DNA of 64,000 nucleotides from a virus (IMGVR_UViG_3300044712_000340:1-64000), one strand, 5' to 3'; numbered from the stretch's first letter, positions 8,946 through 24,659 are shown. Notes: generated by a model from the letters alone, not told the origin. A program made the numbers and translations.

Positions 8946-9159
8946 TTAACTTACTTCTATTTAATTTATTTTTAACTGCTAATTTACCAAATCCAGGTAA
9001 AGAAAAATTAGTCTTTACACCTTCTAAACTATCTAAATTCCTGTATACCTTCTTAGTAATATTCATTCTTATATAACTCATAAAAGTAGTAATAACACTT
9101 TTAACTGTATTTACTGGTATACCTAAAGTATCTGCTACTTCTTTAAATATTTCATCCAT
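8911..9159 (-). CDS. HU/IHF-like DNA-binding protein
   Basis: EVADTLGI..VKSVI..F and FSLPGFGKL motif. Confidence 0.7.
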   Translation of the reverse strand: MDEIFKEVADTLGIPVNTVKSVITTFMSYIRMNITKKVYRNLDSLEGVKTNFSLPGFGKLAVKNKLNRSKLNEKEKNREVAN

Positions 9160-9521: not shown

Positions 9522-9539
9522 GCCGCTTATTTTACAGTA

Positions 9540-9613
9540 CAAATATAAAACAAAAATAATTAAAACAAAATATAACCTATAATAAAAATTATATTATAAA
9601 TATAATACATTTG
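9540..9613. promoter_or_regulatory. Divergent pair of Bacteroidetes -7 elements
   Basis: TATATTTG on minus (9540-9547) and TACATTTG on plus (9606-9613). Confidence 0.65.
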
Positions 9614-9638
9614 TATTAACAAACAAATAAATTAAAAT

Positions 9639-9851
9639 ATGGAAAAATTAATTAAAGAATTTGAACGTATATGTGATCAAGGTATATACCCTTGGAAAAT
9701 GGCAAAAGAATGTACAGAAGTGAGCAAGAAAATAGCAATTAAATATTCTGATTATATTTACGATAATTTTCAATCCTATGACGGATTAGATTTACCTGTA
9801 TCACAAGAAGAACTATTTGATAAATTTATAGAAGAAGAATATGGAAAGTAA
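9639..9851 (+). CDS. Hypothetical protein
   Basis: ORF with AT-rich leader after promoter. Confidence 0.6.
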   Translation: MEKLIKEFERICDQGIYPWKMAKECTEVSKKIAIKYSDYIYDNFQSYDGLDLPVSQEELFDKFIEEEYGK

Positions 9852-9954
9852 TGTAAACCATCCTACTCATTATGGTGGAGATGACCCTCTAGAAGTAATA
9901 AACATAATAGAATATTATAAACTAGGATTCTGTTTAGGTAATGTATGTAAGTAA
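9841..9954 (+). pseudogene. Truncated DUF3310-like gene
   Basis: MESNVNHPTHYGG..EVINII....GFCLGNVCK then stop where the family continues KY..R. Confidence 0.65.
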
Positions 9955-10794
9955 CATAGAAATTTTAGGATGGAAACAAGGCAAATTACCTTATCAATTC
10001 TTTGATGGTATACATATGCTAGTATTTTCAGATCATCATAAAATACAAATAAATCACCTAGCAGATGATGTATGTATATTTGATGGTATTATAAAAAACA
10101 AGTCACAATTAAAAATTTTAATGCAATGGTTAAATATAAATTAAGATTAGTACATTATTGGAGAATACTATGGTATACATTTTTGTTATATTTAACAATA
10201 GTACATGTAATACAAAGGTTTAAATCTCCAAAATTAACAGAAACACAGCTATTACAAGAAATACCTAATAATTTAGTTTTAAAATTTAAACTTTAATGAA
10301 ACAATTAAATATAATTTAATATGGGATGTAATGATGATAGAATAGATGGAATACCTACTTTTAGTGAACTTACATCTAAATTTGATTTGAGTAAGTATTT
10401 AGGTAAAGGAATACATGAACAAATACAAGAAAGTAATATTACTAACTACAATACATTAACACCACAAATACTAGAAAAATTTATACAAGATTCGGTAAGT
10501 AAACAACAAAATATAGATCCTGAATTTAAACAAATAATAGATGATAATTTCTTTAACTTAATTTAAATTATTATGAAAGATAGATGGGTTAATGTAAAAC
10601 GAGCTGTTCCAAATATAGATGAAGAAGTATTAGTTTGGGTAGGAGATGATCAACAATGTTTTGATGTAGCTAGATATAATCCTATTTGTGCATCTCACAA
10701 TAATGGGTTTCAATGCAACTTAACCCCAAACAATTATAGAAATATAACTCATTGGAAATACATAGGAAATAAACCTATTATTAAAAATAAATGA
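9941..10794 (+). CDS. Cluster of small hypothetical ORFs (9941-10144, 10321-10566, 10573-10794; last is DUF551-like)
   Basis: ORF track; WVNVK..P...EEVLV...ITHW pattern in the last. Confidence 0.55.
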
Positions 10795-10795
10795 G

Positions 10796-10872
10796 TATAT
10801 TTGTAAGTGTTTTTTCATACTTTGAATTTAATTGATTAGTTTCAAGTCCCTACTTGTTAGGGACTTTTCTTT
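10796..10872 (+). ncRNA. Candidate small RNA: TATATTTG promoter, U-rich body, intrinsic terminator
   Basis: Promoter 10796-10803; terminator AAGTCCCTA/TAGGGACTT-TTCTT 10844-10872. Confidence 0.45.
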
Positions 10873-11050
10873 ACTCCTTAAATACAGTTAATTCTATATC
10901 CCCAGCATCAGTAGTGGCTTCATGTATTTTATCCATAATTCTAGTCATCGACTTCATTAATTTCTTATCAAACAATCCGTAAGAATCCATAACTGTGTAT
11001 AACTTCCATAACTGATCTAAGTCTTCCTTTTCTATCGTTATTGCATACAT
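10871..11050 (-). CDS. Hypothetical protein (59 aa), not in ORF track
   Basis: MYAITIEKEDLDQLWKLY..., directly downstream of the RepL-like gene. Confidence 0.6.
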   Translation of the reverse strand: MYAITIEKEDLDQLWKLYTVMDSYGLFDKKLMKSMTRIMDKIHEATTDAGDIELTVFKE

Positions 11051-11053
11051 AAT

Positions 11054-11497
11054 TTACCCTCCGAATTCTACATTAAGTGTTAATTTACCTGTTTTTAAAA
11101 ATTCATTTCTAGTATCATTTCTTCCTTTCCAAAATACCATAGGATTAATAAAGTAAGTTCCTTTATCCCCCTCTAGCAATCCATTAACTTTTAAATGTTT
11201 TATAGCATTAGATAATTGTTGAGAACTTATACCTAGAAACTCAACTAATCTATTTCTTTCCCCTGAAGGTAAAAGTACTCTACCTGTATTGTATTCTGCC
11301 ATTATGCAGAACTTAGTTAATACTTTCATTTCAACTACAGATTTTAAATTAAAGAATCCTGCCATATTTTCTATATAAGTCATATAGAACTCATCTTGGT
11401 TAACCCTAACTGAGAAAGTTTTAGAGGTAGTTGTAATCTCTCCTGTCTCAGGATCCACAACTGTTTGCTCATGTTTTAATTTCTTATTCTTTATCAT
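11054..11497 (-). CDS. RepL-like replication/HTH protein
   Basis: VVDPETGEI motif, HTH, YFINPMVFWKG; TAAATTTG promoter at 11518-11525. Confidence 0.75.
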   Translation of the reverse strand: MIKNKKLKHEQTVVDPETGEITTTSKTFSVRVNQDEFYMTYIENMAGFFNLKSVVEMKVLTKFCIMAEYNTGRVLLPSGERNRLVEFLGISSQQLSNAIKHLKVNGLLEGDKGTYFINPMVFWKGRNDTRNEFLKTGKLTLNVEFGG

Positions 11498-11567
11498 GTG
11501 TACATTTTATTAGTGTACAAATTTAACAAAAACTTGTGTAATTTACAAACTTTATTTTACAATTCAA

Positions 11568-11614
11568 TTCACTCATGAGTGAACCGTTTTATGCCATGAG
11601 TGAATAGCATAACG
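11568..11614. repeat. 16-bp perfect palindrome plus a repeated half-site
   Basis: TTCACTCATGAGTGAA at 11568-11583; CATGAGTGAA again at 11595-11604. Confidence 0.85.
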
Positions 11615-11973
11615 GTAGGAATGAACGACAAATCTTGTAACTAATTAACATTCAATTATATCCTTACTTACCCCTTCTTATCTATTATGATAGGGTAGAT
11701 TTATCTACCTATATGATAAAATAAATTGAACTACAGTATGTTATCATCCCTTATGCATAATATCATACCTATAAGATAACAAGCAACCTGTATGATAACA
11801 CAGTAATGTCCAGTAAATTATAAAAAAAAACTGGACAAACATAAGCCTATACTGTAGACTAGATGGTAGATATATGAGAAGTACATATTAGTAATTTCAA
11901 AAAAAAATTATAAAAATTTTTAAAGTAACATGTATATCGTTATGTGTTTACTATTCCATAAACATACCCCCAC

Positions 11974-12325
11974 TAAGTTAGAGCGAGTGACAGTATCCCT
12001 GTCATTGTTTAGTGTGACCAAGATTGCTGAATATCCTAGAGATATTACAAATCGGAAGACTACATACTAATCACTCACTAACTTACACTGCTGATAGGCC
12101 AGATATAGTCTATCACTTATTTTGACTATCCTCTTCAGCCTATCTATATACCACAATGATGTAGTATTAACTTACAGGTTTATAAGCCTTTAGGTTAATA
12201 TTACATATCATTTGATGTAGTACTTAGGTTGATAGGTTATAGTTCTATACAGTTATGATGACATAACGTATAACTTGAATGGAAGTGTTGTTATTGTTAC
12301 AACAGAGAGAATAACACACTTTTCA
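11974..12325 (+). ncRNA. Cluster of tandem structured elements (11974-12085, 12093-12144, 12155-12212 and further hairpins)
   Basis: Nested inverted repeats, e.g. TAAGTTAG/CTAACTTA with GAGTGA/TCACTC; GATAGGC/GCCTATC; no ORF. Confidence 0.55.
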
Positions 12326-12374
12326 CCAATTTTACCAATAATTGAAAATTACTAACTTTAATAATATAGCTAAA

Positions 12375-12464
12375 ATGAAAGCAAATATACCATTAGCAAT
12401 ATACATTATAGGTACTTTAGCTGCTATTGTAGTTACAGTGTACTTCATAGTATTTGTACAATAA
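12375..12464 (+). CDS. Single-TM micropeptide (29 aa)
   Basis: MKANIPLAIYIIGTLAAIVVTVYFIVFVQ. Confidence 0.55.
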   Translation: MKANIPLAIYIIGTLAAIVVTVYFIVFVQ

Positions 12465-12469
12465 CATAA

Positions 12470-12527
12470 AGGATGAGCAAGATTAGGTCTTGTATTAAGT
12501 ATGTCAATCGCATTGACACCTCATCCT
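12470..12527 (+). ncRNA. Three-way-junction element
   Basis: AGGATGAG/CTCATCCT enclosing CAAGA/TCTTG and TGTCAAT/ATTGACA hairpins. Confidence 0.55.
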
Positions 12528-12534
12528 ATTCATA

Positions 12535-12600
12535 CATCACAAGCAGGTTTGCAACTATGAATAAGCATAGTTAAGGGTTCGATTCCATTTGTGGTGCTAA
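12535..12600 (+). ncRNA. Miniature tRNA-like element
   Basis: Acceptor CATCACA/TGTGGTG, T-loop GGTTCGATTCC, central AACTATG/CATAGTT hairpin with 6-nt loop. Confidence 0.5.
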
Positions 12601-12690
12601 TAAACGTAGAGCTGTTCTAGATACTCACAGTATTGTATAGTGATTAGGGTATTGCTTTAGCGAGCTAATTATACAAGTCTTTACGTTTAT
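12600..12690 (+). ncRNA. Structured element with terminal stem
   Basis: ATAAACGTAGA/TTTACGTTTAT closing stem, internal TTGTATA/TATACAA. Confidence 0.5.
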
Positions 12691-12749
12691 ATCTTACAGG
12701 TTAAACAGTGTTGCCTGAAAATACACTGTAATATCTTAATATCAATATT

Positions 12750-13121
12750 ATGTCATTCAATTCAATGTGTCTAGTTAATGCAGTAGCATTCAATTCAGGT
12801 AAAACCGATAAAAATGGTGAAACACCAGTATTACTTAATGTTCTTGCAGGCAAAGCTCCTAATAGGACTGTTATCTCTGGTACAATTGCAAAACGCAATG
12901 GTTATGAGTTAGGTAAGATGTACATTGTACAGATTACTGAAGGTAAAGAAGATCCTCAATATGGACGTCAATTCAACATTAACAAAATCTCTGAATGCTC
13001 AGTAACAGAAATGTTCTCAGCTATCAAGGGATTTGGTGCTGCTGAAATCTTTACGGTAGGACAAGAGCAAGATGCTTCTGTAGAAGAAGTTATTACTGTA
13101 GTTGATACAGAGATTAAGTAA
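12750..13121 (+). CDS. Early hypothetical protein, possible OB fold
   Basis: Beta-rich, DPQYGRQF motif, followed by strong hairpin 13135-13168. Confidence 0.65.
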   Translation: MSFNSMCLVNAVAFNSGKTDKNGETPVLLNVLAGKAPNRTVISGTIAKRNGYELGKMYIVQITEGKEDPQYGRQFNINKISECSVTEMFSAIKGFGAAEIFTVGQEQDASVEEVITVVDTEIK

Positions 13122-13191
13122 TCTTCTTGCAAAATAATGAAAGGTGTAGCAATGCACCTTTCTTATTACTAATTTAAAACTTATAGAAGAA

Positions 13192-13377
13192 ATGAAGATA
13201 TTTGCATTAATTTGTTTTGCATTGATTATTACTTTTGGAATAATTAATTCTTTAAATAAACCCAAAGAATTAACAATATCACTACCTGAAGAAATAAGAC
13301 AAGCTACATCTCAAGATACTTTAATATGTATTAAGAGAAATGATACATTATTCATAGAATTTAATAATAAATACTAA
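13192..13377 (+). CDS. Small membrane-anchored protein
   Basis: N-terminal hydrophobic helix. Confidence 0.6.
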   Translation: MKIFALICFALIITFGIINSLNKPKELTISLPEEIRQATSQDTLICIKRNDTLFIEFNNKY

Positions 13378-13380
13378 CAA

Positions 13381-13690
13381 TATAAAACAAGGTAATACCT
13401 AAATAGGTCTTATTAAAAGATAATTAATAAGGTTGGAAAAGACCATAATTACCTTGTTTATTTTATAGTATTGTCACGATTCCTCTAACCTCGTGAATAT
13501 CCTGTAAGTTTCAGGCTGTACCTATACTAGATGTAAATAGGATATTATACATTTGAGGCTAGTTAATTTGTATAATATGATAAAGTGAAAGGAAAGCACT
13601 TGTCTACTTTGACAAACCCAAGTTCCACGTAGCTTAATTAATTGCTATTGTATAGCTATGCTAGCAGACCAGATAGTCTGCTTTTAATTT
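13381..13690 (+). ncRNA. Structured non-coding cluster
   Basis: AAACAAGGTAAT/ATTACCTTGTTT (13385-13459), AATATCCT/AGGATATT, terminal AGCAGAC/GTCTGCT-TTT. Confidence 0.5.
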
Positions 13691-13713
13691 GTAAATCTTT
13701 AAATCTTAATATT

Positions 13714-14139
13714 ATGGAAAACTTATATTTAGGAAAGTATAATTCTGCTGAAAGTTCTAAAGAAATAACAGTAGGAAAAGGAAATTTTATGTGGCATGGA
13801 ATGATGTCTCATTTATACTTTAATAGAAGTATAATTGAATTAAATTCTATAGTAAACGAAATACAACGTATAAAAAATACTAAAGCTACTCTAATAGAAA
13901 AAGCAGTAGATTTAATAAATAATTTTCATTGGACTCATATGATGGAAGATAACAGTAACGCTACTACAAAGCAACGTAAAAAAGAGGAAGAATTAAAAAA
14001 GATTCTTGAAATATGCACAGAAGATATGTTAAAAGATATATATGTTGCTTATATACACAAAGCATTGATTCATTCTATGGGATGGAAAAGCCCTATGTCT
14101 TATGATAAATTTGTATCAAGAGAGTTACCCTTAACATAA
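13714..14139 (+). CDS. Hypothetical protein (probable start MENLYLGK at 13714)
   Basis: ATG after the repeated leader AATCTTTAAATCTTAATAT. Confidence 0.65.
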   Translation: MENLYLGKYNSAESSKEITVGKGNFMWHGMMSHLYFNRSIIELNSIVNEIQRIKNTKATLIEKAVDLINNFHWTHMMEDNSNATTKQRKKEEELKKILEICTEDMLKDIYVAYIHKALIHSMGWKSPMSYDKFVSRELPLT

Positions 14140-14161
14140 ATAATCTTTAAATCTTAATATA

Positions 14162-14752
14162 ATGAAATTAATGAAATCTAATTGGAAATCATTAGTGATA
14201 TTAATGGTTCCTGTAATCTTATTAGTTGCAGCTATTGTATATAATGTTGTAACAGTTGGAACTAGTTGCTATTTAGTAACTATGTAAGCTCAAAAAGTGA
14301 GAACATATTTAATATGTTATTACATCTCACCTTATTATTTTTCTTCTTAAATTTGTTAAACTTTAAAACTTAAAATATGACCTGGAATCAAAAACTATGG
14401 AGGGACACTCCAGAAGATGACACAGATCAAGATACTTACTGCTTGCAATGTGGTAGATATATTGATCCTAATTTCAGTAATCATAATGGATTATGTGATT
14501 ACTGTAATGAAAGAAAGTATGATAATGAAGAATTAGATTGTTGTAATAAAGTTAAATAATTATGAAAACAATCTATAAAGTACTCAAAGTTATTACTATT
14601 GTTATAGTAATATTAGCTATTATAGTATTAATTACACCTTTAATAGCATTAATATGAACTGGAACGATTTTAAAAATGAATTATTGCCTTATATTTTTAT
14701 GATAGTAACCTCTGGGTTACTGTTATATATTTATGTAAGGTATATAATATAA
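14162..14752 (+). CDS. Micro-ORF cluster: TM peptides 14162-14287, 14562-14657, 14654-14752 and Zn-finger ORF 14377-14559
   Basis: Hydrophobic 31-41 aa ORFs with ATGA coupling; CxxC..CxxC in 14377-14559. Confidence 0.55.
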
Positions 14753-14757
14753 GATAC

Positions 14758-15867
14758 TAATTAAGCTAGTTTATGAACAGCCACACCATTCGTTGTATAC
14801 AAGGAGTAATAAGGTGTAAAGAGGTGAGATGCCTCATTCGAGTAATATCTGGTTGCTAGCCAGAAATAACATATAATATTAATTAAAGAGTTGTTGTACA
14901 ACTATCCAGTAAGTTGCTGGCCATTTGAATAGTAAGCATACTTTTAAATCAGGGATACGTTTGTAATAGAAATATTATTTAGCTTTCATGAACTAGCTAT
15001 CTCAAATGAGAAATATGAATCAGTGTAATTCTGACCTACAAAGGAATAGTATTCCAATGTAACTGCTATAGGCAGTAATTAAAAAAAAATAAAGATTTGG
15101 TAACTAAATAATAATTCGGATAGAAAACCTGTAGAAATTACAGTTAATTAGACTATCAAGAGTAAAATCTTATATTATTTAGTCAACTTAGGTTGAAGTT
15201 TGAATTCAATGGTTTAGCTTACGAGCATTAAAACAATGGAGTTTCCAGTAGTTCAAACTTTACCAAATCTTTTTAAAATATAGTAATAAGTAATAATTCA
15301 GAGAATACTGATGATATTGAATAATAGAAGTAAATGTCTTTTACAATTACTAAAGAATAGTATTACTTATTACTTTAACATAATAACAAATAATATTGGT
15401 GGAGTAATTACCCAGTTTATACTACAATATGAGAGTCTATAAAGTGTCAGGTATAAGTAAATCTCCTTGGTGACTTGTGAGTAGGACACCTGCTTTGTAA
15501 TCGTATAATTAACCAATTATTTGTTATTTTTTTTAATAAAACTCTAGTTAAATCTTTTTAAAATATAACTATAAATTGATGTTTTAATGGAGTACTATGA
15601 ACAGTTTAAGAACACTTACAAGTATACCGAGTGCCATTTGAGTAATTGGTTGTGATGGAAAGAAGACAAACTAGACATTTATAGTTATTATAGAACTCTA
15701 GCTAAAGAGGATAAAGAAAGCCATGAGATAACTTATTAATTGGTTATAAGAAATAGATCGAAATAAATCTATACCAAAGATTAGAATAAAATGTAACAAT
15801 TTGTTATAGTAAAGGCTAAATTAATAAGAAGTTTATCAGGCTGTAGTGAGATTCTACAGCCACTTTT
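14758..15867 (+). ncRNA. Dense tandem array of structured RNA-like modules ending in a terminator
   Basis: Closing stems at 15091-15272, 15282-15374, 15382-15528, 15565-15688, 15727-15837; terminator GGCTGTAG/CTACAGCC 15839-15867; no ORF over 1.1 kb. Confidence 0.65.
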
Positions 15868-15885
15868 AATTTAAAATTAGTAAAT

Positions 15886-16098
15886 ATGGAATACATTACA
15901 TTGATAGGATGGAAATCTAACATAGGAAGATCATTAAATTGGTTAACAATATCAGATATTGAATGTAGTCAAAAATGGAAAAATAAAATATATTTTCCTC
16001 AAGATGTATTAACTACTGAAAAAGGATTTTTATTAGTTCAAACTACAGAAGGAATAAAAGAATTCTCTAAAAGTCATTTTGAAATTTATAAAGAATAA
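15886..16098 (+). CDS. Hypothetical protein
   Basis: ORF track. Confidence 0.55.
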   Translation: MEYITLIGWKSNIGRSLNWLTISDIECSQKWKNKIYFPQDVLTTEKGFLLVQTTEGIKEFSKSHFEIYKE

Positions 16099-16445
16099 AA
16101 TCTCTTTGCTTAGGAAGCAAGCAATAAGTTGCGGTGAATATCCGCCATGCAAGGCAAGCTAACTATAAGCTTATGATTTGGCAAATCAGCTTGCGGAATA
16201 AGACACTTAACAGAGATAGTAAACTCTTTAAAACGTAAGGTGTTACAGCCAAGTACAGAGAGATTTTTTAATATAATAGTTAATAAACCAAGAAAATTGG
16301 TTGAAGATCATTTGTTAGATATATAGATTAATTGACATAGATAACATTAAGAGTTAAAACCTGCTATAATAAGTGCGCCACTTATGATGGGATTGAAAGC
16401 AGTAGCAAGTATAATTATAGAATACAGAAATTCATATTAACTATT
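16097..16445 (+). ncRNA. Two adjacent multibranch modules (16097-16267, 16275-16445)
   Basis: AAAATCTCT/AGAGATTTT and AATAGTTAATA/TATTAACTATT closing stems with internal hairpins. Confidence 0.6.
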
Positions 16446-16476
16446 TTAATTGGAAATTAACTAAAATAATAAATAT

Positions 16477-16855
16477 ATGTGTTTAATTTTAAATAAAGAC
16501 TCAAAAAAATTGTTAGCAAAAAAAAGATATTTTTTGCTATAAATGGTTATTTAAAATACCTATTAAAGATTCAATAGATAAAAATTATAATTATAAAACA
16601 GTATATCAAAAAGTAGATGTCGTAATTGGTGAGACTTATATTTCCGAACTTAGACGTATAGACTCTGTATATTTTTCTTATATTACAAAAGGGTTACATT
16701 CATATAAACATATACCTGTTGATGTATTTTATAACGCTATTCTTGTGGAATGTATTATACCAAAAGGAGCAAAATATTATAGTGGACGATTTAATGCTAT
16801 GTCTAGTTATGCTTCTGATACATTGAAATACATTAAAATAATAAATAACTTATAA
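16477..16855 (+). pseudogene. Frameshifted phage gene (one extra A in A8 run)
   Basis: MCLILNKDSKKLLAKK / DIFCYK...GLHSY...ECIIPKGAKYYSG...YASDTL joined by removing one A at 16518-16525. Confidence 0.75.
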
Positions 16856-17002
16856 TCCAACGGAGGAATACTCATGTAACATTCGAGGATACTAATCTAT
16901 GCAGTTGAAGTGGAATTGGCTTGATCCAATCGATAGATATAGAAGGACACTCAAAAGGGATGCAGGTAGCCAATGTCTTAGAAAGGTCTGCATAAGTTAT
17001 TT
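16843..17002 (+). ncRNA. Structured module
   Basis: AAATAACTTAT/ATAAGTTATTT closing stem, internal ATGCAG/CTGCAT. Confidence 0.55.
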
Positions 17003-17025
17003 AAACTAATTAAAACAAAAGTAAA

Positions 17026-18449
17026 ATGTATATTGTAGATATTGAAAAGTTTACTTTTTTGCAAAGAGATTTTCTAGTGCCTATTTACATGGCTAGAGGG
17101 TGCTTTAACGGTAGAGATCTGCATCCAATAATTACTATTGAAGATAAAATATATGTTCTATCTCATACAAAACAAAAAGGAAAAAGATTAAATATTAAGA
17201 TAAGAATCTATGATATAGAAGGGGAATTTATTACAGGTATAAAATCTTTCAATAGCCATCTTACTGGAAATCAGTATTTAACTTTACCTTTATTTAAGCC
17301 TAATAAAATTTATTCTAATATAAGTGGGTATATAATGATAAAACCTTATTTATATGATTTAGGTCTAACTGTTAAAAAATTCAAACTAATTAAAACTGTA
17401 TAATATGAAATACAATTTAGTGGCTAGATGGCCTGGAACAGATTTATGTTATAGGGATAAGCAATGCCCTAAGTGTAAAAAAGAATATTTAGATACAGAT
17501 AAAATATTTTGTGATATTTGTGAATGTACTAAAGAAGAAACAATTGAAGAAGCTATGCAAATATCTTTAAAAGATAAATTTTCTGGTTGGACTGTATCAC
17601 CTGTTTTTGATGGGAATGAATTAGAAGATGCTTGGATGAGAGGAGCAAATTGGCAAAAAGAACAAGATCTTACTCTTATTAAAGAAGGAGTAATATGTCT
17701 GAAAGAATCTAATATTCTTCTAGAAGCAATGTCTAATAAAATAGATAAAATGTATACTGAAGAAGAAGTTTACAATATTGCATTTTTATTATGGGAAGGA
17801 TATATTCACGAAACAAAAGAATATCCTGATTATTGCACATGGTTTGAACAAAATAAAAAGAAATAATATGCCAGAAATAATAACATTAAATGATTTGCTA
17901 TTAGGGACTTTAGTAGCAATCATAATTGTAGTAGCTTATAAAGTAGCTACAGGAAAAAATTTCATTTCAAAGGAAGATAATAGTCCCACTTGGAGTGAAT
18001 TAGAAAGTAGAAGATTAAATAAAAGATGAATCCTTTGATAAAATTCTTGCTTGTCATAGCTATTATGATAAGTATAATAACATTTTGTTATATAGTATAT
18101 ACTATTATAACAAACAATAAAAACAAATAAAATGGAACTATTAGTGAGACAGAAAAGGCCATTACAGGACTTTTCAAGTGGTAAATGGGTAAATAAACAA
18201 TTTCCTATTATCTTTTATACAATAAAGGATAATAAAAGATTGGTTATAACTCATATGAGTGAGGATGTAAGATCATATGTATTGACATTAACTATAAACA
18301 ACAATTCGTGTATAGGTAAATACAATACACATGAAGATTCTTTATTGTTCAATTTAAATATGGAAGACAATAATTTAAGAATAAAAGATAATACAAGGAT
18401 AGAAGGTCTTGTATTATTAGAAAGAATTGCACCAAATGAGCCAATTTAA
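17026..18449 (+). CDS. Early hypothetical ORFs (17026-17403, 17405-17866 Zn-ribbon, 17868-18029 TM, 18026-18130 TM, 18132-18449)
   Basis: ORF track plus manual reading; tight packing. Confidence 0.6.
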
Positions 18450-18694
18450 GGCTGTGATTTAATTGATTTTAGGGTAGGTGCACCCATCTTAAAGGGGTAG
18501 ACAGTCTGGTTTTCAATAAGGCTATTCGTTTCCAGGCTGCCCTTTATAAATTTAAAAGGGGCTTAATAATTAATAACATTGATTGTTAGTATTATATGTA
18601 ATAGGTAGGCAGTTTTCCCCTCTGCCGTTATTAGGATGTGTTGGATTTATTTTCATAATTTTTAGGTTTAGGTTAATAATGTTTTGGTTAGTAT

Positions 18695-18730
18695 AGTACT
18701 ACAGGTTGCATCCTACTGTAGTGCTTTTTT
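18695..18730 (+). terminator. Intrinsic terminator
   Basis: AGTACTACAG/CTGTAGTGCT followed by T-run. Confidence 0.7.
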
Positions 18731-18752
18731 ATTTTATATTTGTAGAATATTT

Positions 18753-18863
18753 GGGTTGTATGTTACTGGGTGGTAATATCCTAATGGTATGATTTAGGAA
18801 GTGATAGAAATATGTGATATCCTAATACTATCTTATGAAGTTCGAATCTTCAACAACCCACTA
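18753..18863 (+). ncRNA. tRNA-like RNA with long variable arm and non-canonical anticodon loop
   Basis: Acceptor GGGTTGT/ACAACCC, T-arm TGAAG-TTCGAAT-CTTCA, D-stem TGTTAC/GTAATA, TCCTAA/TTAGGA with 9-nt loop; TATATTTG promoter at 18735-18742. Confidence 0.7.
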
Positions 18864-19010
18864 AAATAGTAATAATTTTATAGAAATCTATAGGAAACTG
18901 TAGACGTAAATACAATACAATATTAAGAAGATAATTTATTAATGTTGGAATGCTGGAGTTTGTATATTGGTAGTAAGAAAAGGCTAGACTATCTTAAACT
19001 ATTACTATTT
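18864..19010 (+). ncRNA. Structured module abutting the tRNA-like RNA
   Basis: AAATAGTAATA/TATTACTATTT closing stem; TCTATAG-GAAA-CTGTAGA tetraloop hairpin. Confidence 0.55.
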
Positions 19011-19031
19011 ATTGTTTAACTTAAAAAGAAA

Positions 19032-19508
19032 ATGATGAAATGGATATTAACATTAGTATTATGTCTTATTTACTTGAACATAAATCCAAGTATAAAAGAA
19101 TTAAAGGGAAATAAATTAAATTCTATTAAAAGTTTATCTATTGAAGGTAAAGAGCTAATTTACAAGAAAGTATATCAAGAAACAATAGAAACACTAAAGA
19201 GACAAGAAGGATTTAGAGCTTATTTCTACTCAGATAACGGATATCAATGTATTGGTTATGGTCAAAGAATAAAGTTTTATTCTGAGAAGATACAAGAACC
19301 AGTTACAAAAGAGCAAGCAACTAGGATTCTTGAAAAGAGTTTTAATAATCATATTAAACTAGTAAAAAGAATATATCCTAAATTAGATGATATAAGAGTT
19401 ATAGAATTAGCTCATATATCATATCAAAGTGGAATAGTAAAAGTAATTAAACTAATGAAAAATCAATATGAATTACAAAATAGTAACCAACGAACAACAG
19501 TTAATTGA
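19032..19508 (+). CDS. Phage lysozyme (GH24-like) with N-terminal hydrophobic anchor
   Basis: EGFRAYFYSD..QCIGYG motif. Confidence 0.65.
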   Translation: MMKWILTLVLCLIYLNINPSIKELKGNKLNSIKSLSIEGKELIYKKVYQETIETLKRQEGFRAYFYSDNGYQCIGYGQRIKFYSEKIQEPVTKEQATRILEKSFNNHIKLVKRIYPKLDDIRVIELAHISYQSGIVKVIKLMKNQYELQNSNQRTTVN

Positions 19509-20148
19509 GTTCATTGATTGGCTACCAGAGCTTAGATACAATGAGACTTTTTATGTGTGTCTATTTGCACGTAAGAAGTATTGTCAGCATTTAGTTCATA
19601 TAGCTAGTGATAAAGGTCAAATGAAACGATTTACTTCTAAAAAAGATTATCTTATTCAAAAGATAAAACAATTAGAATGTGAAGTAGGAAATTATACTGT
19701 TAAAGGTGTAATTGCACCCCAAGAAAGTTTAGCTTTGTATATCAATCCTAACCCCAGGGACATGGAGAAAGCAGCCAAACAATCTTTAAAACATTTTGCT
19801 GAGTTAATTACTAAACCTTATGGAGGATGGAATCCTCAAGCAGAAGTTATATCAGAAATACAGAAAGCTAAAAGTAGAACTATTTATTTTGACATTGATT
19901 TTGATGGAGTAGAGATATCTTCTATAAAAGACAGATTGTTAGGAATATTAAATTATTCTTCCTGCCATTTTCTTAAAACTAGAGGGGGATTCCATTTATT
20001 AGTTGAAATAGATAAAATTAATGAAGAATATAAGAAAACTTGGTACAAATCTGTAACTTCTTTTGAGGGTATAGATATTAAAGGAGACAATATGATTCCT
20101 GTACCAGGATGTACACAAGGAGATTTTACACCTTATTTTATAAAATAA
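19468..20148 (+). CDS. Putative AEP/PrimPol-superfamily protein
   Basis: FDIDFD and KTRGGFH motifs. Confidence 0.5.
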   Translation: MNYKIVTNEQQLIEFIDWLPELRYNETFYVCLFARKKYCQHLVHIASDKGQMKRFTSKKDYLIQKIKQLECEVGNYTVKGVIAPQESLALYINPNPRDMEKAAKQSLKHFAELITKPYGGWNPQAEVISEIQKAKSRTIYFDIDFDGVEISSIKDRLLGILNYSSCHFLKTRGGFHLLVEIDKINEEYKKTWYKSVTSFEGIDIKGDNMIPVPGCTQGDFTPYFIK

Positions 20149-20163
20149 TAAATCTAAAATAAA

Positions 20164-20649
20164 ACGGAAAAAGAAATTAAAATACAAGTACCTGATGGGT
20201 ATGAAATTGATAAAGATAAAAGTACTTTTGAAAGAATAGTATTTAAAGAGATTAAGAAAAATTTGACTTATAATGATATTGCCAAAAATCTATTTACTGG
20301 AAAAGACTTATGGAATTTAGAAGAAGGTGATGTAGATAAACTTGATTGGTCTTTAACAGACATTTTATATGCAGATAATTCTAAAACAAGAGAGCAATTA
20401 GAATCAATTTTAGCTTTAAATAAGTTATGTAATGTAGCTAAATACTTGAATGGTGACTGGATTCCTAATTTTATGGATTCTAGTAGAAAATGGTATATTT
20501 ACATAAGTGAAGGTGGAGCATTAAATATTCATAACTTTATTTCTACTAAGTTTAGTATTGTCTATTTTAAAACAGAACAACTAGCACAACAAGCTATAGA
20601 AATTTTAGGTGAAGAAGAAATAAGAAAAGCATTAACTTTAAATTGGTAG
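20164..20649 (+). CDS. Phage protein, probable start at ACG 20164
   Basis: In-frame EKEIKIQVPDGYEIDKDKSTFERIVFK upstream of the track start. Confidence 0.6.
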   Translation, partial: TEKEIKIQVPDGYEIDKDKSTFERIVFKEIKKNLTYNDIAKNLFTGKDLWNLEEGDVDKLDWSLTDILYADNSKTREQLESILALNKLCNVAKYLNGDWIPNFMDSSRKWYIYISEGGALNIHNFISTKFSIVYFKTEQLAQQAIEILGEEEIRKALTLNW

Positions 20650-22031
20650 ATATGGGAACTCAAGATTTAATAAAACTTAGTTTAGAAAAAGGATTTATGC
20701 CTATATTGTGGCATATCTCTTCATCTCCGCCAACAAAATTAGCTGAAAAATTCTATCCTTTATGGTTAAGTGATTTGCAGAAATGGTTAAGAGAAGCACA
20801 TAATATTCATATTGAAATACAAGCTATTAAAGGTGGGTATATCTCTACTAAGTTAGATGAACCTAAAATTCATTATAGACAAACTGTGTATACTGATTTA
20901 GTTACAGAAGATACATTAGATGAAACAAAATATAACATATATGAAGAGGCTTTAGAGTCTGCTTTAGAAGAAGCATTAACACTAATAAAATAAAATATGG
21001 AAATGTTTATAGGTTGCTGGAATAGTAGGCTAGATATTGTTCCAGAGCTTACTGAACAGGAAAAACAAGAAATATATGGAACTAATTGGAAATTTTTAAC
21101 TAATAAAAACTTAAATTATGGAGACTTACAAGACAAAATTAACAGACAGAGTTGCTGTATTATATCAATCAACAATGTTGGAAGCAGCAAAACCTGTGAC
21201 AAGACAGGAATTAATTAATAGAGAATGGGTAATAGACTTACCTGTTATAAGAAAACCACACAATAGGTACAGAAAAGATACACTATTATCTCCTGAACAA
21301 AAAGAAAGCCTTAAAGAAAACTATGGTAATCTTTATCTTAAAGGTATGACAGAACAAGACATTCTTAAAGTACTAAGAAAAAGACACAAGAACCACAAAT
21401 TAACTATGTTTGCTATAATTAGAAATTAATATTAACCTTAAAAATTTATTATTATGCCGCTATTTTGTGAAGTATGTAAAGTTGTTGTTAGTAAATTTAC
21501 TAAGCAACATTCAGATCCTTTTCAGCCTTATAATGATTTAACAGCTAAATTAGCTGAGATTCAGGCTAAAGAGGATATGAAGAAAGAAAAAGAACAAGAA
21601 AAGAAGAAAGAGAAAAAGTCATGAGAAAACTATTGGTTTTATTTAGTTTACTCTTAGTAGTAAACTCTCAAGCACAAACTAAGGATCAATTCAAAATCTT
21701 ATTAGATAAACTTGATTGTAAAGTTATAGTAGATACTACATCTTTTATTATAGGTGAGGTAGAATGTGAAAGGTTGATATCAGGTGTAAAATATAGAGTT
21801 GATTTATATGTTACAGGAATATTAGATAGAAATACTTTAACTTCCTGGACTGAGAGTTGGACTGATGCTACTAAACAAGATGTAATTCAAACTCTTAATG
21901 ATAATGAGTATCTAAAAAGAGCTGGGGAATCTAATGTATGGTTAGGTAGATTTGCTAATAAAGATTTTATGTGTATGCCATTGTTCTCTTATGAGAGGGA
22001 ATATTGGTATATATTATTTGTATTTATATAA
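20643..22031 (+). CDS. Hypothetical ORFs (20643-20993, 21118-21429, 21621-22031 with signal peptide)
   Basis: ORF track; terminator hairpin follows at about 22036-22065. Confidence 0.55.
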
Positions 22032-22091
22032 GATAATAAGGGTAGAAATGCCCTTATTATTTTTTCCTTAAGGCATTTAAATTAAATAAGT

Positions 22092-22649
22092 ATGGAAACA
22101 GAAGAAATATGGAAACCAATTAAAGGGTATGAAGATTTATACGAAGTGTCTAATCTGGGTAGAGTTAAAAGATTAGATTCTAATATAATATTGAAATATA
22201 ACAAGGATATTAAAAATAAATTAAAAGTTTGTTTGTGTAAACAAGGAAAAATAACTTATAAAGTAGTATCACGTATTGTAGTAGAATCCTTTTTAGGTCT
22301 TTCTTATAAACATTTTATTAAGTTTAAAGACTCAAATAGCTTGAATGTTAAACTAAATAATTTAGACACCAATAATATTAGATACTGTTCTGATTGCGGA
22401 AAAGAACTATTTTTAATAAATAAAGAAAGAATTAAATGTGATTACTGCTTTAAAGTACCTTATTATAAAATAAGTAAAATAAGTAAAAGAAATAAAATTA
22501 AAGACTTACATCCTACATATGTAAATTTCCTTTTAAAAGACAAGGGGTTTGCTAAAGAAGAGATAAATCCTATATTATATGATATACAATTATTAATGGT
22601 TAAAACAAAAAGATTATGCAAAACATTAAAGAACTCAGAGATGCTTTAG
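22092..22649 (+). CDS. NUMOD4-domain protein, degenerate HNH-like
   Basis: EIWKPIKGYEDLYEVSNLGRVK; HNH histidines not evident. Confidence 0.75.
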   Translation: METEEIWKPIKGYEDLYEVSNLGRVKRLDSNIILKYNKDIKNKLKVCLCKQGKITYKVVSRIVVESFLGLSYKHFIKFKDSNSLNVKLNNLDTNNIRYCSDCGKELFLINKERIKCDYCFKVPYYKISKISKRNKIKDLHPTYVNFLLKDKGFAKEEINPILYDIQLLMVKTKRLCKTLKNSEML

Positions 22650-22846
22650 CTAAAAATTATGAAAGATTAGAAGAAGCTTATTCAAATCAAAATGTAACTA
22701 AAGAATTACAGTTTATTACAAAAGAGGTAACTAATATGACAGGTAAATTTATGCAATCTGTAGCTTTAGAAGTAAAAACACAGCAACATTTAGGAATAAA
22801 AGAATCAATACCTTTCATGAAATATAATAAAACTAGTAAAAAATGA
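22616..22846 (+). CDS. Hypothetical protein
   Basis: ORF track. Confidence 0.6.
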   Translation: MQNIKELRDALAKNYERLEEAYSNQNVTKELQFITKEVTNMTGKFMQSVALEVKTQQHLGIKESIPFMKYNKTSKK

Positions 22847-23089
22847 AGTATAAGTAATGAAAAACTGTAATGGAGTACTGGAACTTCACATTAAATAATA
22901 AAACGGTTCGGAGCAGAAGTGCTGATGCTATTACTTATATTTAATATGTAATTATACAGAGTAAAGAGTGTAGCAACAGGTGAATAGAGATTGTAGCCTA
23001 AAAGCACCGACGATTTGGCATAGTGGGTACAGTCTCCTGTATAGTTATATATTTATAGGTTTTCACTGTTGTACCTTAAACAATAGTGA
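22846..23089 (+). ncRNA. Two abutting structured modules plus hairpin
   Basis: Stems 22846-22942 and 22943-23053 (17 bp with G-T pairs); TCACTGTTG/CAATAGTGA hairpin. Confidence 0.6.
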
Positions 23090-23110
23090 TTTTAAATTAA
23101 ATTAATTATT

Positions 23111-24199
23111 ATGAATAATATAAAGTGGAAAACATATAATCCTAAAACAACAGGTAAGTATCTAACATGGGTACAACATAGCCACTCTACCTTAGAAAAA
23201 TCTTTCTATTTCTTTTTAACTACTTATGATTCAGACAATGGATGGCATACAAGTCCAAATGTTACAGTACTATGTTGGACACATCTACCTGATATGCCTA
23301 AATTTGAAGTAGATTTAGTAGATGAAAAGATGGAGGAATTTATTGATAAAGTGGATAAACTTTGTTATGACTATGGGTATGAAATAAGTGCCCTTACTAC
23401 AGTTGAAATGAACTCTTTATTAGTAATAGAGGGAGAAAATGAAAGAGTTAAACTTAAATCCATTATAGGGGATGGAAGAGGTAAATTATGAGAATATATA
23501 AGAGACATAAAATAAAATATGTAATAGATACAGAGTGGTATTTGAATACTTTAAAGTTACATTCATGGTATAAAAATGAGTGGAAAACAAGTTCTGTAGG
23601 AGTTAAGGTATTTACAATATTACCTAGTCTGTATTTAACTTTTCCTTATTGGAGAGGTATTACACATGATTCTAATACTGTATGTGTTATATGTAGTTTT
23701 CTAACTTTTTGGTTTAAACTAAGTATTTATTATAAATTTACTCCTATACAAAAATTAGAAGACGGTAAAACAATTGATTATAGTAATACTATAGATATAT
23801 GAAAAAATTTGTACAATGTTGTACTAAGATAACTTGTAAAGATATAAACGAATTATGTAGTAAAATAAATGCTTTAGAGGCAGCTAGTGAATACCCTATA
23901 AGTGTTTCTCCTTCTATAGCTAATAGAACAGATACTAATTTTTGGTATAATGTATTTTATTATAAACAAGTAGCAAATGACGAAAATTTATGAAAATAAA
24001 TTGGTATACAGGTGATCCTGTACTTGAAGGATGGTATATAGTTTATGCTAATTATACTTGGGAAGAGCAACACTTGGTTGGAATACAAGCTATGTTTAAA
24101 TGGAGCAAAGTAGATTTATGGCATTGCCCTCTTGGATATGAAATACTTTATTGGACTTATTTACTAGATGAACCTACAGATGAAAATATTATTTCTTGA
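23111..24199 (+). CDS. Four coupled hypothetical ORFs
   Basis: ATGA overlaps. Confidence 0.6.
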
Positions 24200-24659
24200 T
24201 TTTGACGGAGTATTAAACTCTTTAGATAATATGGAAGCTAATTATTTTCTTTGGAAAAGTGGAATACAACATAAATCTAAAGATAGATTTGGGGATTTAT
24301 TTGACCAAAGATGTGTTAATTGGTTAACATATATTGTAATGAAAACAAACTGTAAAATAGTTATATCTAGTTCTTGGAGAAAGTCTGGTAAATTTGCTAT
24401 GATAGAAGTATGGGAAGAAAGAAAAATGCCTGGATACTTAATAGGTACTACACCCATACTAGAGGATCAACTAAGAGGATACGAGATAAAAGAATTCTTA
24501 TTACAAGAAGAGATGATAGGTGGGGGTAATGTAGAGTCTTATTGTATTGTAGATGATGATAATGATATGTTAGAAGGGCAACCATTAGTACAAACTAATC
24601 CTATATATGGATTAGATAAAACTGCTGCAATACAAGTAATGAATATTTTAAATAAATGA
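24168..24659 (+). CDS. HAD-superfamily phosphatase (RNA-repair-type HAD)
   Basis: FLDFDGVLN, ISSSWR, RGYEI, IVDDD. Confidence 0.85.
   Translation: MNLQMKILFLDFDGVLNSLDNMEANYFLWKSGIQHKSKDRFGDLFDQRCVNWLTYIVMKTNCKIVISSSWRKSGKFAMIEVWEERKMPGYLIGTTPILEDQLRGYEIKEFLLQEEMIGGGNVESYCIVDDDNDMLEGQPLVQTNPIYGLDKTAAIQVMNILNK

What the first reader, a model, noticed from the sequence alone, without database searches (positions are those of the whole stretch)
11974..23089. Array of about 20 tandem structured RNA-like modules, each closed by an AT-rich terminal stem, across the early region
Seen: the ORF-free stretches between early genes are almost fully tiled by 50-185 nt units. Each has complementary ends (8-17 bp) enclosing several internal hairpins: 11974-12085, 12093-12144, 12155-12212, 12470-12527, 12600-12690, 13381-13467, 14951-15055, 15091-15272, 15282-15374, 15382-15528, 15565-15688, 15727-15837, 16097-16267, 16275-16445, 16843-17002, 18864-19010, 22846-22942, 22943-23053. 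Many abut with 0-10 nt spacers, interiors are mutually unrelated, and G-T mismatches in stems fit plus-strand RNA pairing. Inference: a polycistronic repertoire of distinct ncRNAs released from the early transcript at their closing stems, possibly acting as decoys or sponges against host defence proteins or as host-takeover RNAs. I cannot assign any to a known family.
Basis: partly seen in the sequence, partly recalled or inferred. Interest (0 to 1): 0.9.

Follow-up and report, generated by a model that had tools for sequence, protein, structure and literature searches.

The report
Stem-closed RNA cassettes in crAss-like phage
The gene-free stretches of this crAss-like phage's early region hold about fourteen well-supported, mutually unrelated folded-RNA modules, each closed by its own long-range helix; several are kept through compensating mutations in related phages and in an unrelated jumbo phage, but no RNA data were available and their function is unknown.

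Summary
The window is the left 64 kb of a complete 93.5-kb Crassvirales genome. Its ORF-free early stretches carry 9 perfect long-range inverted repeats of 11 bp or more, against 0.54 expected in shuffles (0 of 1000).

About 14 of the 18 units are solid. Four are weak or plain hairpins. Listed units cover about 55% of all ORF-free sequence, and 88-98% in the two densest blocks.

Four modules have homologues in five other phage lineages, and their helices survive through compensatory changes:
- Unit 12470-12527: 7 double changes in 19 pairs, none broken.
- Unit 16097-16267: 92% of cells paired in five lineages, against 38-56% in slid controls.

Wobble pairs and energies favour the + strand. No module matches Rfam, a tRNA, a permuted tRNA or a repeat family.

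In one relative, the same kind of closing helix encloses ordinary tRNAs and two circularly permuted tRNA genes.

Published RNA-seq of phage phi14:2 shows abundant, stable early non-coding RNAs from the same genomic position, but I found no sequence homology to them.

Best reading: autonomous plus-strand RNA cassettes of a tRNA-gene-like array, with the closing helix acting as an insulating or processing handle. Release at the stems and a decoy role remain untested. This scan has noted similar stem-closed cassettes in other phages.

The parts
11893..12006 (+). Conserved start of the early region: an A/T tract, a conserved block (..ACTATTCCAT..TACCCCCAC.AAGT..GAGC.AG) and hairpin 11986-12006. 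Candidate first early promoter or leader.
   Evidence: About 70% identical to G001 and alignable to L014. The hairpin stem differs by two compensatory pairs in G001 and is rebuilt with another stem in L014.
11974..12085 (+). Unit 1 (weak): 8-bp closing stem around the leader hairpin.
   Evidence: z -2.3. I did not see its closing stem in G001 (by eye).
12093..12144 (+). Unit 2: simple hairpin, terminator-like.
   Evidence: z -4.4. Also listed in the terminator scan.
12155..12212 (+). Unit 3: one long hairpin (about 20 bp) rich in G.U.
   Evidence: MFE -22.7 on +, -12.8 on -; z -7.3.
12470..12527 (+). Unit 4: 58-nt three-helix RNA with the invariant junction GUAUUAAGUAU.
   Evidence: Homologue in G001: 19 pairs, 7 with both sides changed, 0 broken. 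Slid controls give 26-40% paired and no double change. A covariance model finds it only in the window and G001.
12535..12598 (+). Minimal tRNA-like element with a GGTTCGATTCC T-loop. The next module starts 2 nt after it.
   Evidence: One of only two T-loop motifs in the window. A counterpart with the same T-loop and acceptor 3' strand exists in G001. ARAGORN does not call it at default settings.
12600..12690 (+). Unit 5: 12-bp closing stem (one G.U) around two hairpins.
   Evidence: Recovered as a separate MFE domain.
13381..13467 (+). Unit 6: 12-bp perfect stem (13385-13459) around small hairpins.
   Evidence: z -4.0.
14886..14923 (+). Most conserved non-coding block: two short hairpins, AGTTGT-TGT-ACAACT and CCAG-7 nt-CTGG.
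   Evidence: 94% identical in G004 and 85% in L033/L041. Variation lies in the second loop.
14951..15055 (+). Unit 7 (weak as delimited).
   Evidence: Poor terminal pairing; z -1.5. Homologues support hairpins at 15037-15061 and 15062-15076 instead, one with C-G to U.G.
15091..15272 (+). Unit 8 (U8): 13-bp closing stem and an inner stem ACTAAATAATA/TATTATTTAGT with a variable insert.
   Evidence: Homologues in G001, G003 and G004. One closing pair reads G-C, A-U and G.U in different lineages. The tip insert is 59 nt here, 37 nt in G003, 15 nt in G004 and a 5-nt loop in G001.
15282..15374 (+). Unit 9: 14-bp perfect closing stem.
15382..15528 (+). Unit 10: 13-bp perfect closing stem.
15265..15282 (+). 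First copy of the 18-nt direct repeat AAATCTTTTTAAAATATA. The second copy is at 15550-15567. Together they bracket units 9 and 10.
   Evidence: (family D3). The same junction joins U8 directly to U13 in G004.
15565..15688 (+). Unit 11: 12-bp perfect closing stem with a weak interior.
   Evidence: (z -0.55).
15727..15837 (+). Unit 12 (U12): closing stem GATAACTTATTAAT/ATTAATAAGAAGTTTATC.
   Evidence: Homologue in L033/L041 with an A-U to G-C change in the closing stem.
15839..15861 (+). Intrinsic-terminator-like hairpin that ends the 1.1-kb block.
   Evidence: One G-C to A-U compensatory change in L033.
16097..16267 (+). Unit 13 (U13): a helical RNA (five helices counted) with an invariant core around GATTTGGCAAATCAG.
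   Evidence: Five lineages including the jumbo phage. 36 pairs, 91.7% of cells paired against 38-56% slid; 5 pairs with both sides changed. The covariance model scores 155-190 bits in the homologues. On four sequences the plus strand consensus is -12.5 kcal/mol and the minus strand -7.1.
16275..16445 (+). Unit 14: 11-bp perfect closing stem.
   Evidence: L033 has a closed module at the same position with another stem and no interior similarity that I could see (read by eye).
16843..17002 (+). Unit 15: 12-bp perfect closing stem, standing alone between two ORFs.
   Evidence: z only -1.0.
18753..18861 (+). tRNA-like element with a 7-bp acceptor stem and a GTTCGAATC T-loop. The next module starts 3 nt after it.
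   Evidence: Called by ARAGORN only at relaxed thresholds. T-loop motif. Separate MFE domain.
18864..19010 (+). Unit 16: 11-bp perfect closing stem.
   Evidence: + strand -28.1, - strand -19.3.
22846..22942 (+). Unit 17: 13-14 bp closing stem with G.U pairs, starting at the stop codon of ORF 22616-22846.
22943..23053 (+). Unit 18: 17-bp closing stem with two G.U pairs, followed by the terminator-like hairpin 23063-23089.
   Evidence: + strand -33.1 (z -4.4), - strand -18.1 (z -1.3)..

Best explanation
The ORF-poor stretches of the early, rightward-transcribed region encode a set of autonomous plus-strand RNA cassettes. They belong to the same kind of stable-RNA gene array as the phage's tRNA-like genes.

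Each cassette is a cargo of one to several hairpins whose two ends pair in a long-range, AT-rich helix of 10-17 bp. That helix makes each cassette fold independently of its neighbours. It probably also marks the unit for processing or protection within a long early transcript, much as leader-trailer helices do around rRNAs. I put physical release at about 50%.

The cassettes are gained, lost and exchanged as units at short AT-rich junctions (TTAAAATAT, TTAACAT, TTAATAT).

Shown here: the helices exist, exceed chance, are kept by compensatory change and are strand-specific.

Inferred: early transcription by the virion RNA polymerase, by analogy with phi14:2; processing at the stems; and action in trans on host RNA metabolism, translation or defence.
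For: (1) Excess of long-range stems: 9 against 0.54 expected, 0 of 1000 shuffles. Across four phages the density is 1.08 per kb in non-coding sequence and 0.23 per kb in coding sequence.

(2) Domain tiling and z-scores of -4 to -6 for three of the six stretches folded whole; the other three give -1.1 to -2.7.

(3) Covariation: U4 has 7 double changes in 19 pairs and none broken. U12 and its terminator have 5 in 27. U13 is 91.7% paired in five lineages against 38-56% slid. One pair of the U8 closing stem reads G-C, A-U and G.U. The tip of a U8 hairpin carries inserts of 5 to 59 nt, as expansion segments do.

(4) Strand: the U13 consensus is -12.5 kcal/mol on + and -7.1 on -, with C.A mismatches on -. 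Thirteen of 18 units and five of the six stretches folded whole have lower energy on +. Examples are -133 against -85 and -65 against -39.

(5) Autonomy: the order is U8-U13 in G004; one module lies between them in G001 and several in the window; the order is reversed in jumbo phage G003, which has no crAss-type terminase. Sequence cores are invariant across these phages.

(6) In relative G001, closing stems enclose two ordinary tRNAs and two circularly permuted tRNA genes. These permuted genes only gain a tRNA shape if the closing helix forms in RNA.

(7) Both tRNA-like elements in the window abut modules with a 2-3 nt gap.

(8) Drobysheva et al. (10.1101/2020.03.07.982082) report two long early intergenic regions of phi14:2 transcribed rightward above most genes and persisting through infection. 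This genome has a 2451-aa ORF with a DFDxD motif, like that virion polymerase.
Against: I found no sequence homology to the phi14:2 non-coding regions, so the expression argument rests on analogy of position.

Homologues are few (two to five lineages), and 10 of the 14 solid modules have none. Those 10 rest on the stem statistics alone.

A count of G:T against A:C mismatches inside stems is only 6:3. Per-unit z-scores are similar on both strands.

Nearly all closing stems are perfect Watson-Crick, so the stems alone would also fit a constraint at the DNA level.

Stems of 11-14 bp are at the lower limit for RNase III.

Several blocks lie just before terminators and could be long 3' UTRs acting only in cis.
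Confidence: 0.7

Rival explanations
1. The blocks are one or a few long multidomain RNAs, or long structured 3' UTRs, that are never cut into units. The closing helices only organise domains, and the RNA acts in cis, for example as an exonuclease barrier that stabilises or insulates the early mRNAs upstream.
For: Blocks 14753-15837 and 22846-23053 end at terminator-like hairpins directly after ORFs. phi14:2 is described as making 'long' non-coding RNAs. Domain-closing helices separated by short linkers are normal in large RNAs. No processing data exist.
Against: Modules occur alone between ORFs (16843-17002, 18864-19010). They appear in other orders and beside other genes in relatives and in an unrelated jumbo phage. 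Unpaired cores such as GUAUUAAGUAU and the ~30-nt U13 core are invariant while the flanks diverge, which generic stabilisers would not need. There is no Rfam match to GOLLD or ROOL.
Confidence: 0.2
2. The inverted repeats act in DNA. They would be ends of small mobile or recombination cassettes, or hairpin or cruciform signals for the virion RNA polymerase or for replication, and the RNA folds are incidental.
For: Closing stems are almost all perfect Watson-Crick. Cassettes are gained and lost at the junctions. An 18-nt direct repeat brackets units 9 and 10, and other direct repeats bracket ORF cassettes. gp66 of phi14:2 was assayed on denatured DNA.
Against: Arms lie 50-170 nt apart, too far for cruciform extrusion. 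Internal helices covary too. Conserved G.U pairs become A.C on the other strand, and the minus-strand consensus loses helices. No two modules share arm or interior sequence, unlike MITE or REP families. The permuted tRNAs in G001 need the helix at the RNA level.
Confidence: 0.06
3. The pattern is chance self-complementarity in AT-rich DNA, or the stretches hide coding sequence through small ORFs or another genetic code.
For: GC is only about 26-28%, and AT-rich sequence gives many short inverted repeats. Background is about 0.2 per kb in coding sequence. One real small membrane ORF (about 12375-12464) and one frameshifted ORF (16477-16855) lie among the modules.
Against: 0 of 1000 shuffles reach the observed count. 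Helices are kept by compensatory change in other phages. Codes 4 and TAG=Q open nothing. I found no ORF conserved inside U4, U8, U12 or U13.
Confidence: 0.02

Closest known systems
Early 'long non-coding RNAs' of Cellulophaga crAss-like phage phi14:2 (g004-g005 and g005-g006 intergenic regions; Drobysheva et al., 10.1101/2020.03.07.982082)
   Same: Same order of phages. Both are ORF-free kilobase stretches at the start of the rightward early region. In phi14:2 they are transcribed above most genes from the earliest time point and stay abundant, with function unknown.
   Different: No detectable sequence or model homology. phi14:2 shows no clear excess of perfect long-range stems. Part of its region is a tmRNA-like gene, which the window lacks. 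The paper does not describe a modular stem-closed architecture.
Phage tRNA gene arrays and the stable non-tRNA RNAs in them (T4 species 1 and 2 / bands C and D; named from my own knowledge)
   Same: Head-to-tail stable-RNA genes, each closed by a terminal helix, separated by a few nucleotides and probably made as a polycistronic precursor. tRNA-like elements are embedded, and relatives carry real tRNAs in the same blocks.
   Different: The window has no canonical tRNA. Modules are 50-185 nt with 10-17 bp AT-rich closing helices and no cloverleaf. No permuted tRNA was found in this genome.
Leader-trailer processing helices of bacterial rRNA operons, cut by RNase III (established knowledge)
   Same: A long-range helix formed by sequences on either side of a structured stable RNA within a longer transcript. 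In G001 such helices flank ordinary tRNAs.
   Different: Stems here are much shorter (10-17 bp) and AT-rich. No cleavage has been shown. The host and its RNases are unknown.
Y RNAs / YrlA (Rfam RF02553) and circularly permuted tRNA genes of red algae (named from my own knowledge)
   Same: RNAs whose 5' and 3' ends pair in a closing stem. tRNA mimicry occurs in the same loci. G001 has two permuted tRNA genes inside closing stems.
   Different: No Rfam hit. No TROVE/Ro60 or RtcB gene in this phage. The window's own modules lack T-loops, apart from the two linear tRNA-like elements.
GOLLD and ROOL large ornate RNAs of phages and prophages (Rfam RF01998, RF03087)
   Same: Phage-borne, near tRNA genes, kilobase-scale structured non-coding sequence of unknown function.
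   Different: No match even at E<5. The modules here reshuffle independently between genomes, which argues against one obligatory large fold.

Membership tests
Any Rfam 15 family (including tRNA, tmRNA, Y RNA/YrlA, GOLLD, ROOL, 6S, ribozymes) | Covariance-model score at the family's gathering threshold, or at least a suggestive E-value | tested here: not met
   No hit at gathering thresholds in the whole window. In 11400-19100 at E<=5 the only hit was one chance-level match, E 3.3.
Canonical tRNA | Cloverleaf detected by ARAGORN at default settings | tested here: not met
   0 genes in 64 kb. Only two degenerate candidates at relaxed thresholds.
Circularly permuted tRNA gene | The interior of a closed module gives a tRNA once its two halves are re-joined | tested here: not met
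   A rotation screen of all closed modules (35,322 trimmed variants) recovers the two positive cases in G001 but none in this genome.
MITE / REP / Correia-type repeated palindromic elements | Many copies sharing terminal inverted repeats and interior sequence | tested here: not met
   All-against-all comparison gives only chance 9-12-mers, and there are no further copies in the genome.
phi14:2 early non-coding RNAs | Sequence or structure homology to phi14:2 1278-1984, 2904-3590 or 3910-4602 | tested here: not met
   blastn, nhmmer and the two models R1 and R2 find nothing.
phi14:2 early non-coding RNAs | Same genomic place and orientation in a Crassvirales genome that has a virion RNA polymerase | tested here: met
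   Head genes are crAss-type. The ORF-free stretches sit at the start of the + strand block upstream of the DNA polymerase. There is a 2451-aa ORF with a DFDxD motif. The phi14:2 layout is.
phi14:2 early non-coding RNAs | Abundant, stable early transcript | not testable with these tools
RNase III leader-trailer processing stems | A long-range helix flanking a stable RNA cargo | tested here: met
   Closing helices around every solid module. In G001 they surround tRNAs at 11003-11075 and 11461-11532 of L040rc.
RNase III leader-trailer processing stems | Cleavage within the helix | not testable with these tools
   No RNA-end data. The 10-17 bp stems are short for this enzyme.
Y RNA / YrlA with Ro60 | A Ro60 (TROVE) partner gene nearby and a tRNA-like domain on a closing stem | tested here: not met
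   No TROVE gene in the phage, and no T-loop inside the closed modules. The host genome is unknown.

The most novel reading that the evidence does not exclude
Stem-closed RNA cassettes are a mobile gene class exchanged between unrelated phages of low-GC Bacteroidota (crAss-like and jumbo). The closing helix would be a handle for a cleavage, and possibly ligation, pathway, the same one that matures the canonical and circularly permuted tRNAs found inside such helices in a relative. The diverse non-tRNA cargoes would be trans-acting RNAs, made by the injected polymerase, that each target a different host component such as RNases, translation factors or defence sensors.
Probability: 0.2. Interest if true: 0.88.

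Novelty: new variant of a known kind. Interest (0 to 1): 0.68.

Why it matters
Crassvirales include the most abundant phages of the human gut, and their early programme is run by an injected RNA polymerase. The one transcriptome available, for phi14:2, showed that the most abundant early products are unexplained non-coding RNAs.

This locus gives that observation some anatomy in one lineage. It shows discrete, independently folding cassettes with covariation-supported helices, invariant single-stranded cores that look like binding sites, cassette-wise turnover, and sharing with a jumbo phage.

It offers concrete RNAs to test, chiefly the 58-nt U4 and the roughly 170-nt U13. Through the relative G001 it also links the architecture to tRNA maturation, including what may be the first circularly permuted tRNA genes seen in a phage.

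If the cargoes prove to be anti-defence or host-takeover RNAs, that would open an RNA-based layer of phage-host conflict in Bacteroidota.

Tried and rejected
- Alternative genetic codes (4, TAG=Q) do not open the stretches.
- Nucleotide searches of 50,697 phage records found no relative. Protein searches gave only distant Crassvirales at 38-49% identity.
- Sigma-70-type promoters are not enriched: 72 found against 82 expected. A Bacteroidota-type TTTG..TAnnTTTG motif is absent from the + strand of the region. The junction motif TCTTTTTAAAATATA occurs only twice. So 'one promoter per module' has no support.
- No k-mer is shared by the hairpin loops of different modules, which argues against a CsrB-like sponge.
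- The G:T against A:C count in stems was indecisive at 6:3.
- The U13 17-mer gave mostly chance hits in IMG/VR, with 4 of 10 true. The metagenome and GTDB scans added only L038, L039 and L041, which are near-duplicates or fragments.
- Models R1 (U13) and R2 (U4) found no copies in phi14:2 or in 14-16 other crAss-like loci.
- ARAGORN's relaxed 'tRNA-Asp with a 360-nt intron' at 12149-12597 is probably spurious. Its 5' half is the long hairpin 12155-12212.
- A tmRNA search of the window was negative.
- No TROVE or RtcB gene in the phage.

Full report
**What the window is.** The window is the first 64 kb of a complete 93,532-bp phage genome with direct terminal repeats and about 28% GC. The portal, large terminase and major head protein on the minus strand at 182-7474 match crAss-type PHROGs. 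The head protein is 49% identical to that of Cellulophaga phage phi14:2, a member of Crassvirales. A 2451-aa ORF outside the window carries the DFDxD motif of the crAss virion RNA polymerase. From about 11.9 kb the genes run rightward towards the DNA polymerase at 25369-27690. This matches the layout of the phi14:2 early region.

**Checking the observation.** Between the small early genes lie stretches without ORFs under code 11, code 4 or TAG=Q. They are 11500-12749, 13378-13713, 14753-15885, 16099-16477, 16843-17025, 18450-19031 and 22847-23110.

In 3.8 kb of ORF-free sequence I count 9 perfect inverted repeats of 11 bp or more spanning up to about 260 nt. Dinucleotide shuffles give 0.54, and none of 1000 reaches 9. 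Six of the 11 repeats of 12 bp or more in the whole genome fall within 13385-17003.

When each ORF-free stretch is folded whole, the minimum-energy structure splits into separate domains that coincide with most of the listed units. The z-scores are -5.0, -5.9 and -4.0 for the three richest stretches. Coding controls average -0.42. The modules share no sequence with one another.

Some points are weaker:
- 14951-15055 is poorly closed.
- 12093-12144 and 12155-12212 are plain hairpins.
- The closing stem of 11974-12085 is not conserved in G001.
- Listed units cover about 55% of all ORF-free sequence. 'Almost fully tiled' is true only for 15091-15837 and 16097-16445.

**Known families.** ARAGORN finds no tRNA. 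Rfam finds nothing at gathering thresholds, or at E<=5 in the region. The window contains only two T-loop motifs, both in degenerate linear tRNA-like elements at 12535-12598 and 18753-18861. In each case a closed module begins 2-3 nt after the tRNA-like 3' end.

**Relatives.** No nucleotide relative exists among 50,697 phage records. Scans of IMG/VR, JGI metagenomes and GTDB genomes brought in five other lineages:
- G001 (IMGVR_UViG_3300037067_002156; loci L001, L027, L040; terminase 64% identical; L038 is near-identical).
- The L033 = L037 = L041 phage, whose full 104.8-kb contig is binned into an Omnitrophota MAG.
- G004 (IMGVR_UViG_3300031537_000001; locus L054).
- The fragment L039.
- G003, a 334-kb jumbo phage rated complete that has no crAss-type terminase.

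All of these have ORF-free early stretches rich in closed modules. Across four genomes the density of long-range stems is 1.08 per kb in non-coding sequence and 0.23 per kb in coding sequence. G001 has a run of four abutting modules separated by 7-nt spacers of the form TTCTTAT.

**Covariation.** Four window modules have recognisable homologues.
- U4 (12470-12527) against G001: 19 predicted pairs in three helices. Seven have both sides changed and none is broken. The junction GUAUUAAGUAU is invariant. Sliding the partners gives 26-40% pairing and no double change.
- U12 (15727-15837) with its terminator against L033: five double changes in 27 pairs, including one in the closing stem and one in the terminator.
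- U13 (16097-16267) in five lineages: 36 pairs in five helices, 91.7% of cells paired against 38-56% slid, and five pairs with changes on both sides. Closing-stem columns read C-G, U.G and U-A in different phages.
- U8 (15091-15272): one closing-stem pair reads G-C, A-U and G.U. An inner hairpin keeps its stem while its tip carries 5, 15, 37 or 59 nt in different phages, which is how RNA expansion segments behave.

The hairpin at 11986-12006 also shows two compensatory pairs in G001 and a rebuilt stem in L014.

**Strand.** Folding the U13 alignment as the reverse complement lowers the consensus from -12.5 to -7.1 kcal/mol. It introduces C.A mismatches in the closing stem and loses the long-range helix. 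Thirteen of 18 units have lower energy on the + strand, and so do five of the six stretches folded whole, some by a wide margin: -133 against -85 for 18450-19031 and -65 against -39 for 22840-23110. A neutral count of G:T against A:C mismatches in stems is only 6:3. The strand call therefore rests mainly on the homologues and the energies.

**Cassette behaviour.** In G004, U8 is followed by the spacer TTAAAATAT and then directly by U13. G001 has one further closed module between them. The window has several modules, a terminator and an ORF between them. In the jumbo phage the order is U13 then U8. In the window an exact 18-nt direct repeat, AAATCTTTTTAAAATATA, brackets units 9 and 10, as if a block had been inserted at the junction. 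L033 has a tRNA bracketed by a repeated terminator half. The modules therefore behave as independent units that are gained, lost and exchanged, even between unrelated phages. This argues for autonomous, probably trans-acting products rather than parts of one obligatory large fold.

**What the closing helix does.** The most informative clue comes from G001. Rfam finds ten ordinary tRNAs there on the early strand. Two lie inside 10-bp closing stems. Two further closed modules are circularly permuted tRNA genes, ordered T-arm and acceptor 3' strand, a 2-5 nt linker, then acceptor 5' strand, D arm and anticodon arm. Once the halves are re-joined in silico, ARAGORN at default settings calls tRNA-Thr(UGU) and tRNA-Leu(CAG). 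A blind rotation screen recovers both. These permuted genes acquire a tRNA shape only if the closing helix forms in RNA. The helix is therefore an RNA-level device that holds or joins the ends of stable-RNA cargo. The same screen finds no permuted tRNA in the window's genome, so its cargoes are of other, unknown kinds.

**Expression.** The only evidence is by analogy. In phi14:2 two long early intergenic regions are transcribed rightward above most genes from the earliest time point and do not decline, and the authors left their function open. I find no homology between those regions and this window. One of the phi14:2 regions contains a tmRNA-like gene.

**Function.** I found no shared loop motif, so a sponge for one common factor is unlikely. 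No RNA-binding or RNA-processing gene is evident among the early ORFs. The exception is a HAD domain of the 'Swiss Army Knife' RNA-repair type at 24168-24659. The phage has no Ro60 or RtcB gene.

I commit to the following reading, at about 0.7 confidence. These are autonomous plus-strand RNA cassettes of a tRNA-gene-like array, made early, whose closing helices insulate their folds and probably serve as processing or protection handles.
- Physical release at the stems: about even odds.
- A defence-decoy or host-takeover role: plausible but untested.
- Main rival: unprocessed long structured RNA or 3' UTR acting in cis, about 0.2.
- DNA-level function: about 0.06.
- Chance or hidden coding: about 0.02.

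**Novelty.** Abundant early non-coding RNA in a crAss-like phage is in print. My searches of the paper library did not turn up a description of the stem-closed cassette architecture, its covariation support, its cassette-wise turnover, its sharing with a jumbo phage, or its link to enclosed and permuted tRNAs. Earlier notes of this scan describe similar stem-closed RNA cassettes in other phages, so the pattern may be widespread.

Noticed in passing
L040 (G001, IMGVR_UViG_3300037067_002156), reverse-complement coordinates 10774-10889 and about 11326-11452: Two stem-closed modules are circularly permuted tRNA genes. Re-joined in silico they are called tRNA-Thr(UGU) and tRNA-Leu(CAG) by ARAGORN at default settings. 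Neighbouring closing stems enclose ordinary tRNAs. As far as I know, permuted tRNA genes are described only in some algae and archaea.
   Followed up: partly
L018 (phi14:2, NC_021806.1) 4031-4502: The published g005-g006 'long non-coding RNA' region of phi14:2 contains a tmRNA-like gene. Rfam RF00023 scores 46 bits against a threshold of 47, E 2.6e-16. ARAGORN predicts the tag GSSVQKLAMVA, with a G3.U70 acceptor pair. It is not annotated in the record.
   Followed up: partly
L051 (G003, IMGVR_UViG_3300049436_000052, 334 kb), reverse-complement 8351-9878: A jumbo phage without a crAss-type terminase carries homologues of modules U13 and U8, in reversed order, in its own 1.5-kb ORF-free stretch with further closed modules. 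This suggests horizontal exchange of RNA cassettes between unrelated phages.
   Followed up: partly
window 16477-16855 (+): An ORF of about 125 aa starting MCLILNKD needs a frame change inside an A8 run near 16515-16525. This could be a sequencing error, transcriptional slippage or a pseudogene. It is bracketed by a 23-nt imperfect direct repeat at 16453 and 16825.
   Followed up: partly
window 11560-11830: Repeated TATGATAA / TTATCAT-type motifs lie between the divergent structural and early blocks, next to a RepL-like winged-helix ORF (11054-11497, minus strand; PF05732, E 7.7e-8). These may be iterons of an origin or operator.
   Followed up: no
window 24168-24659 (+): ORF with a HAD domain of the 'Swiss Army Knife' RNA-repair type (PF18143, E 1.1e-22), just downstream of the RNA-rich early region.
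   Followed up: no
window 13694-13719 and 14142-14167: A 26-nt direct repeat, AATCTTTAAATCTTAATAT(T/A)ATG, lies immediately upstream of two early ORFs and includes their start codons. It may be a shared translation-start or promoter context.
   Followed up: no
window 12375-12464 (+): A small ORF for a predicted membrane peptide of about 29 aa sits among the modules. G001 has a comparable small hydrophobic ORF, but placed after its tRNA-like element rather than before it.
   Followed up: no
L033 7218-7345: A degenerate tRNA, called by ARAGORN with a two-base anticodon, is bracketed by an 18-nt direct repeat (CCTACAGCTATTTTAAAT) that duplicates the 3' half of the preceding terminator. It looks like a cassette-insertion scar.
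   Followed up: no
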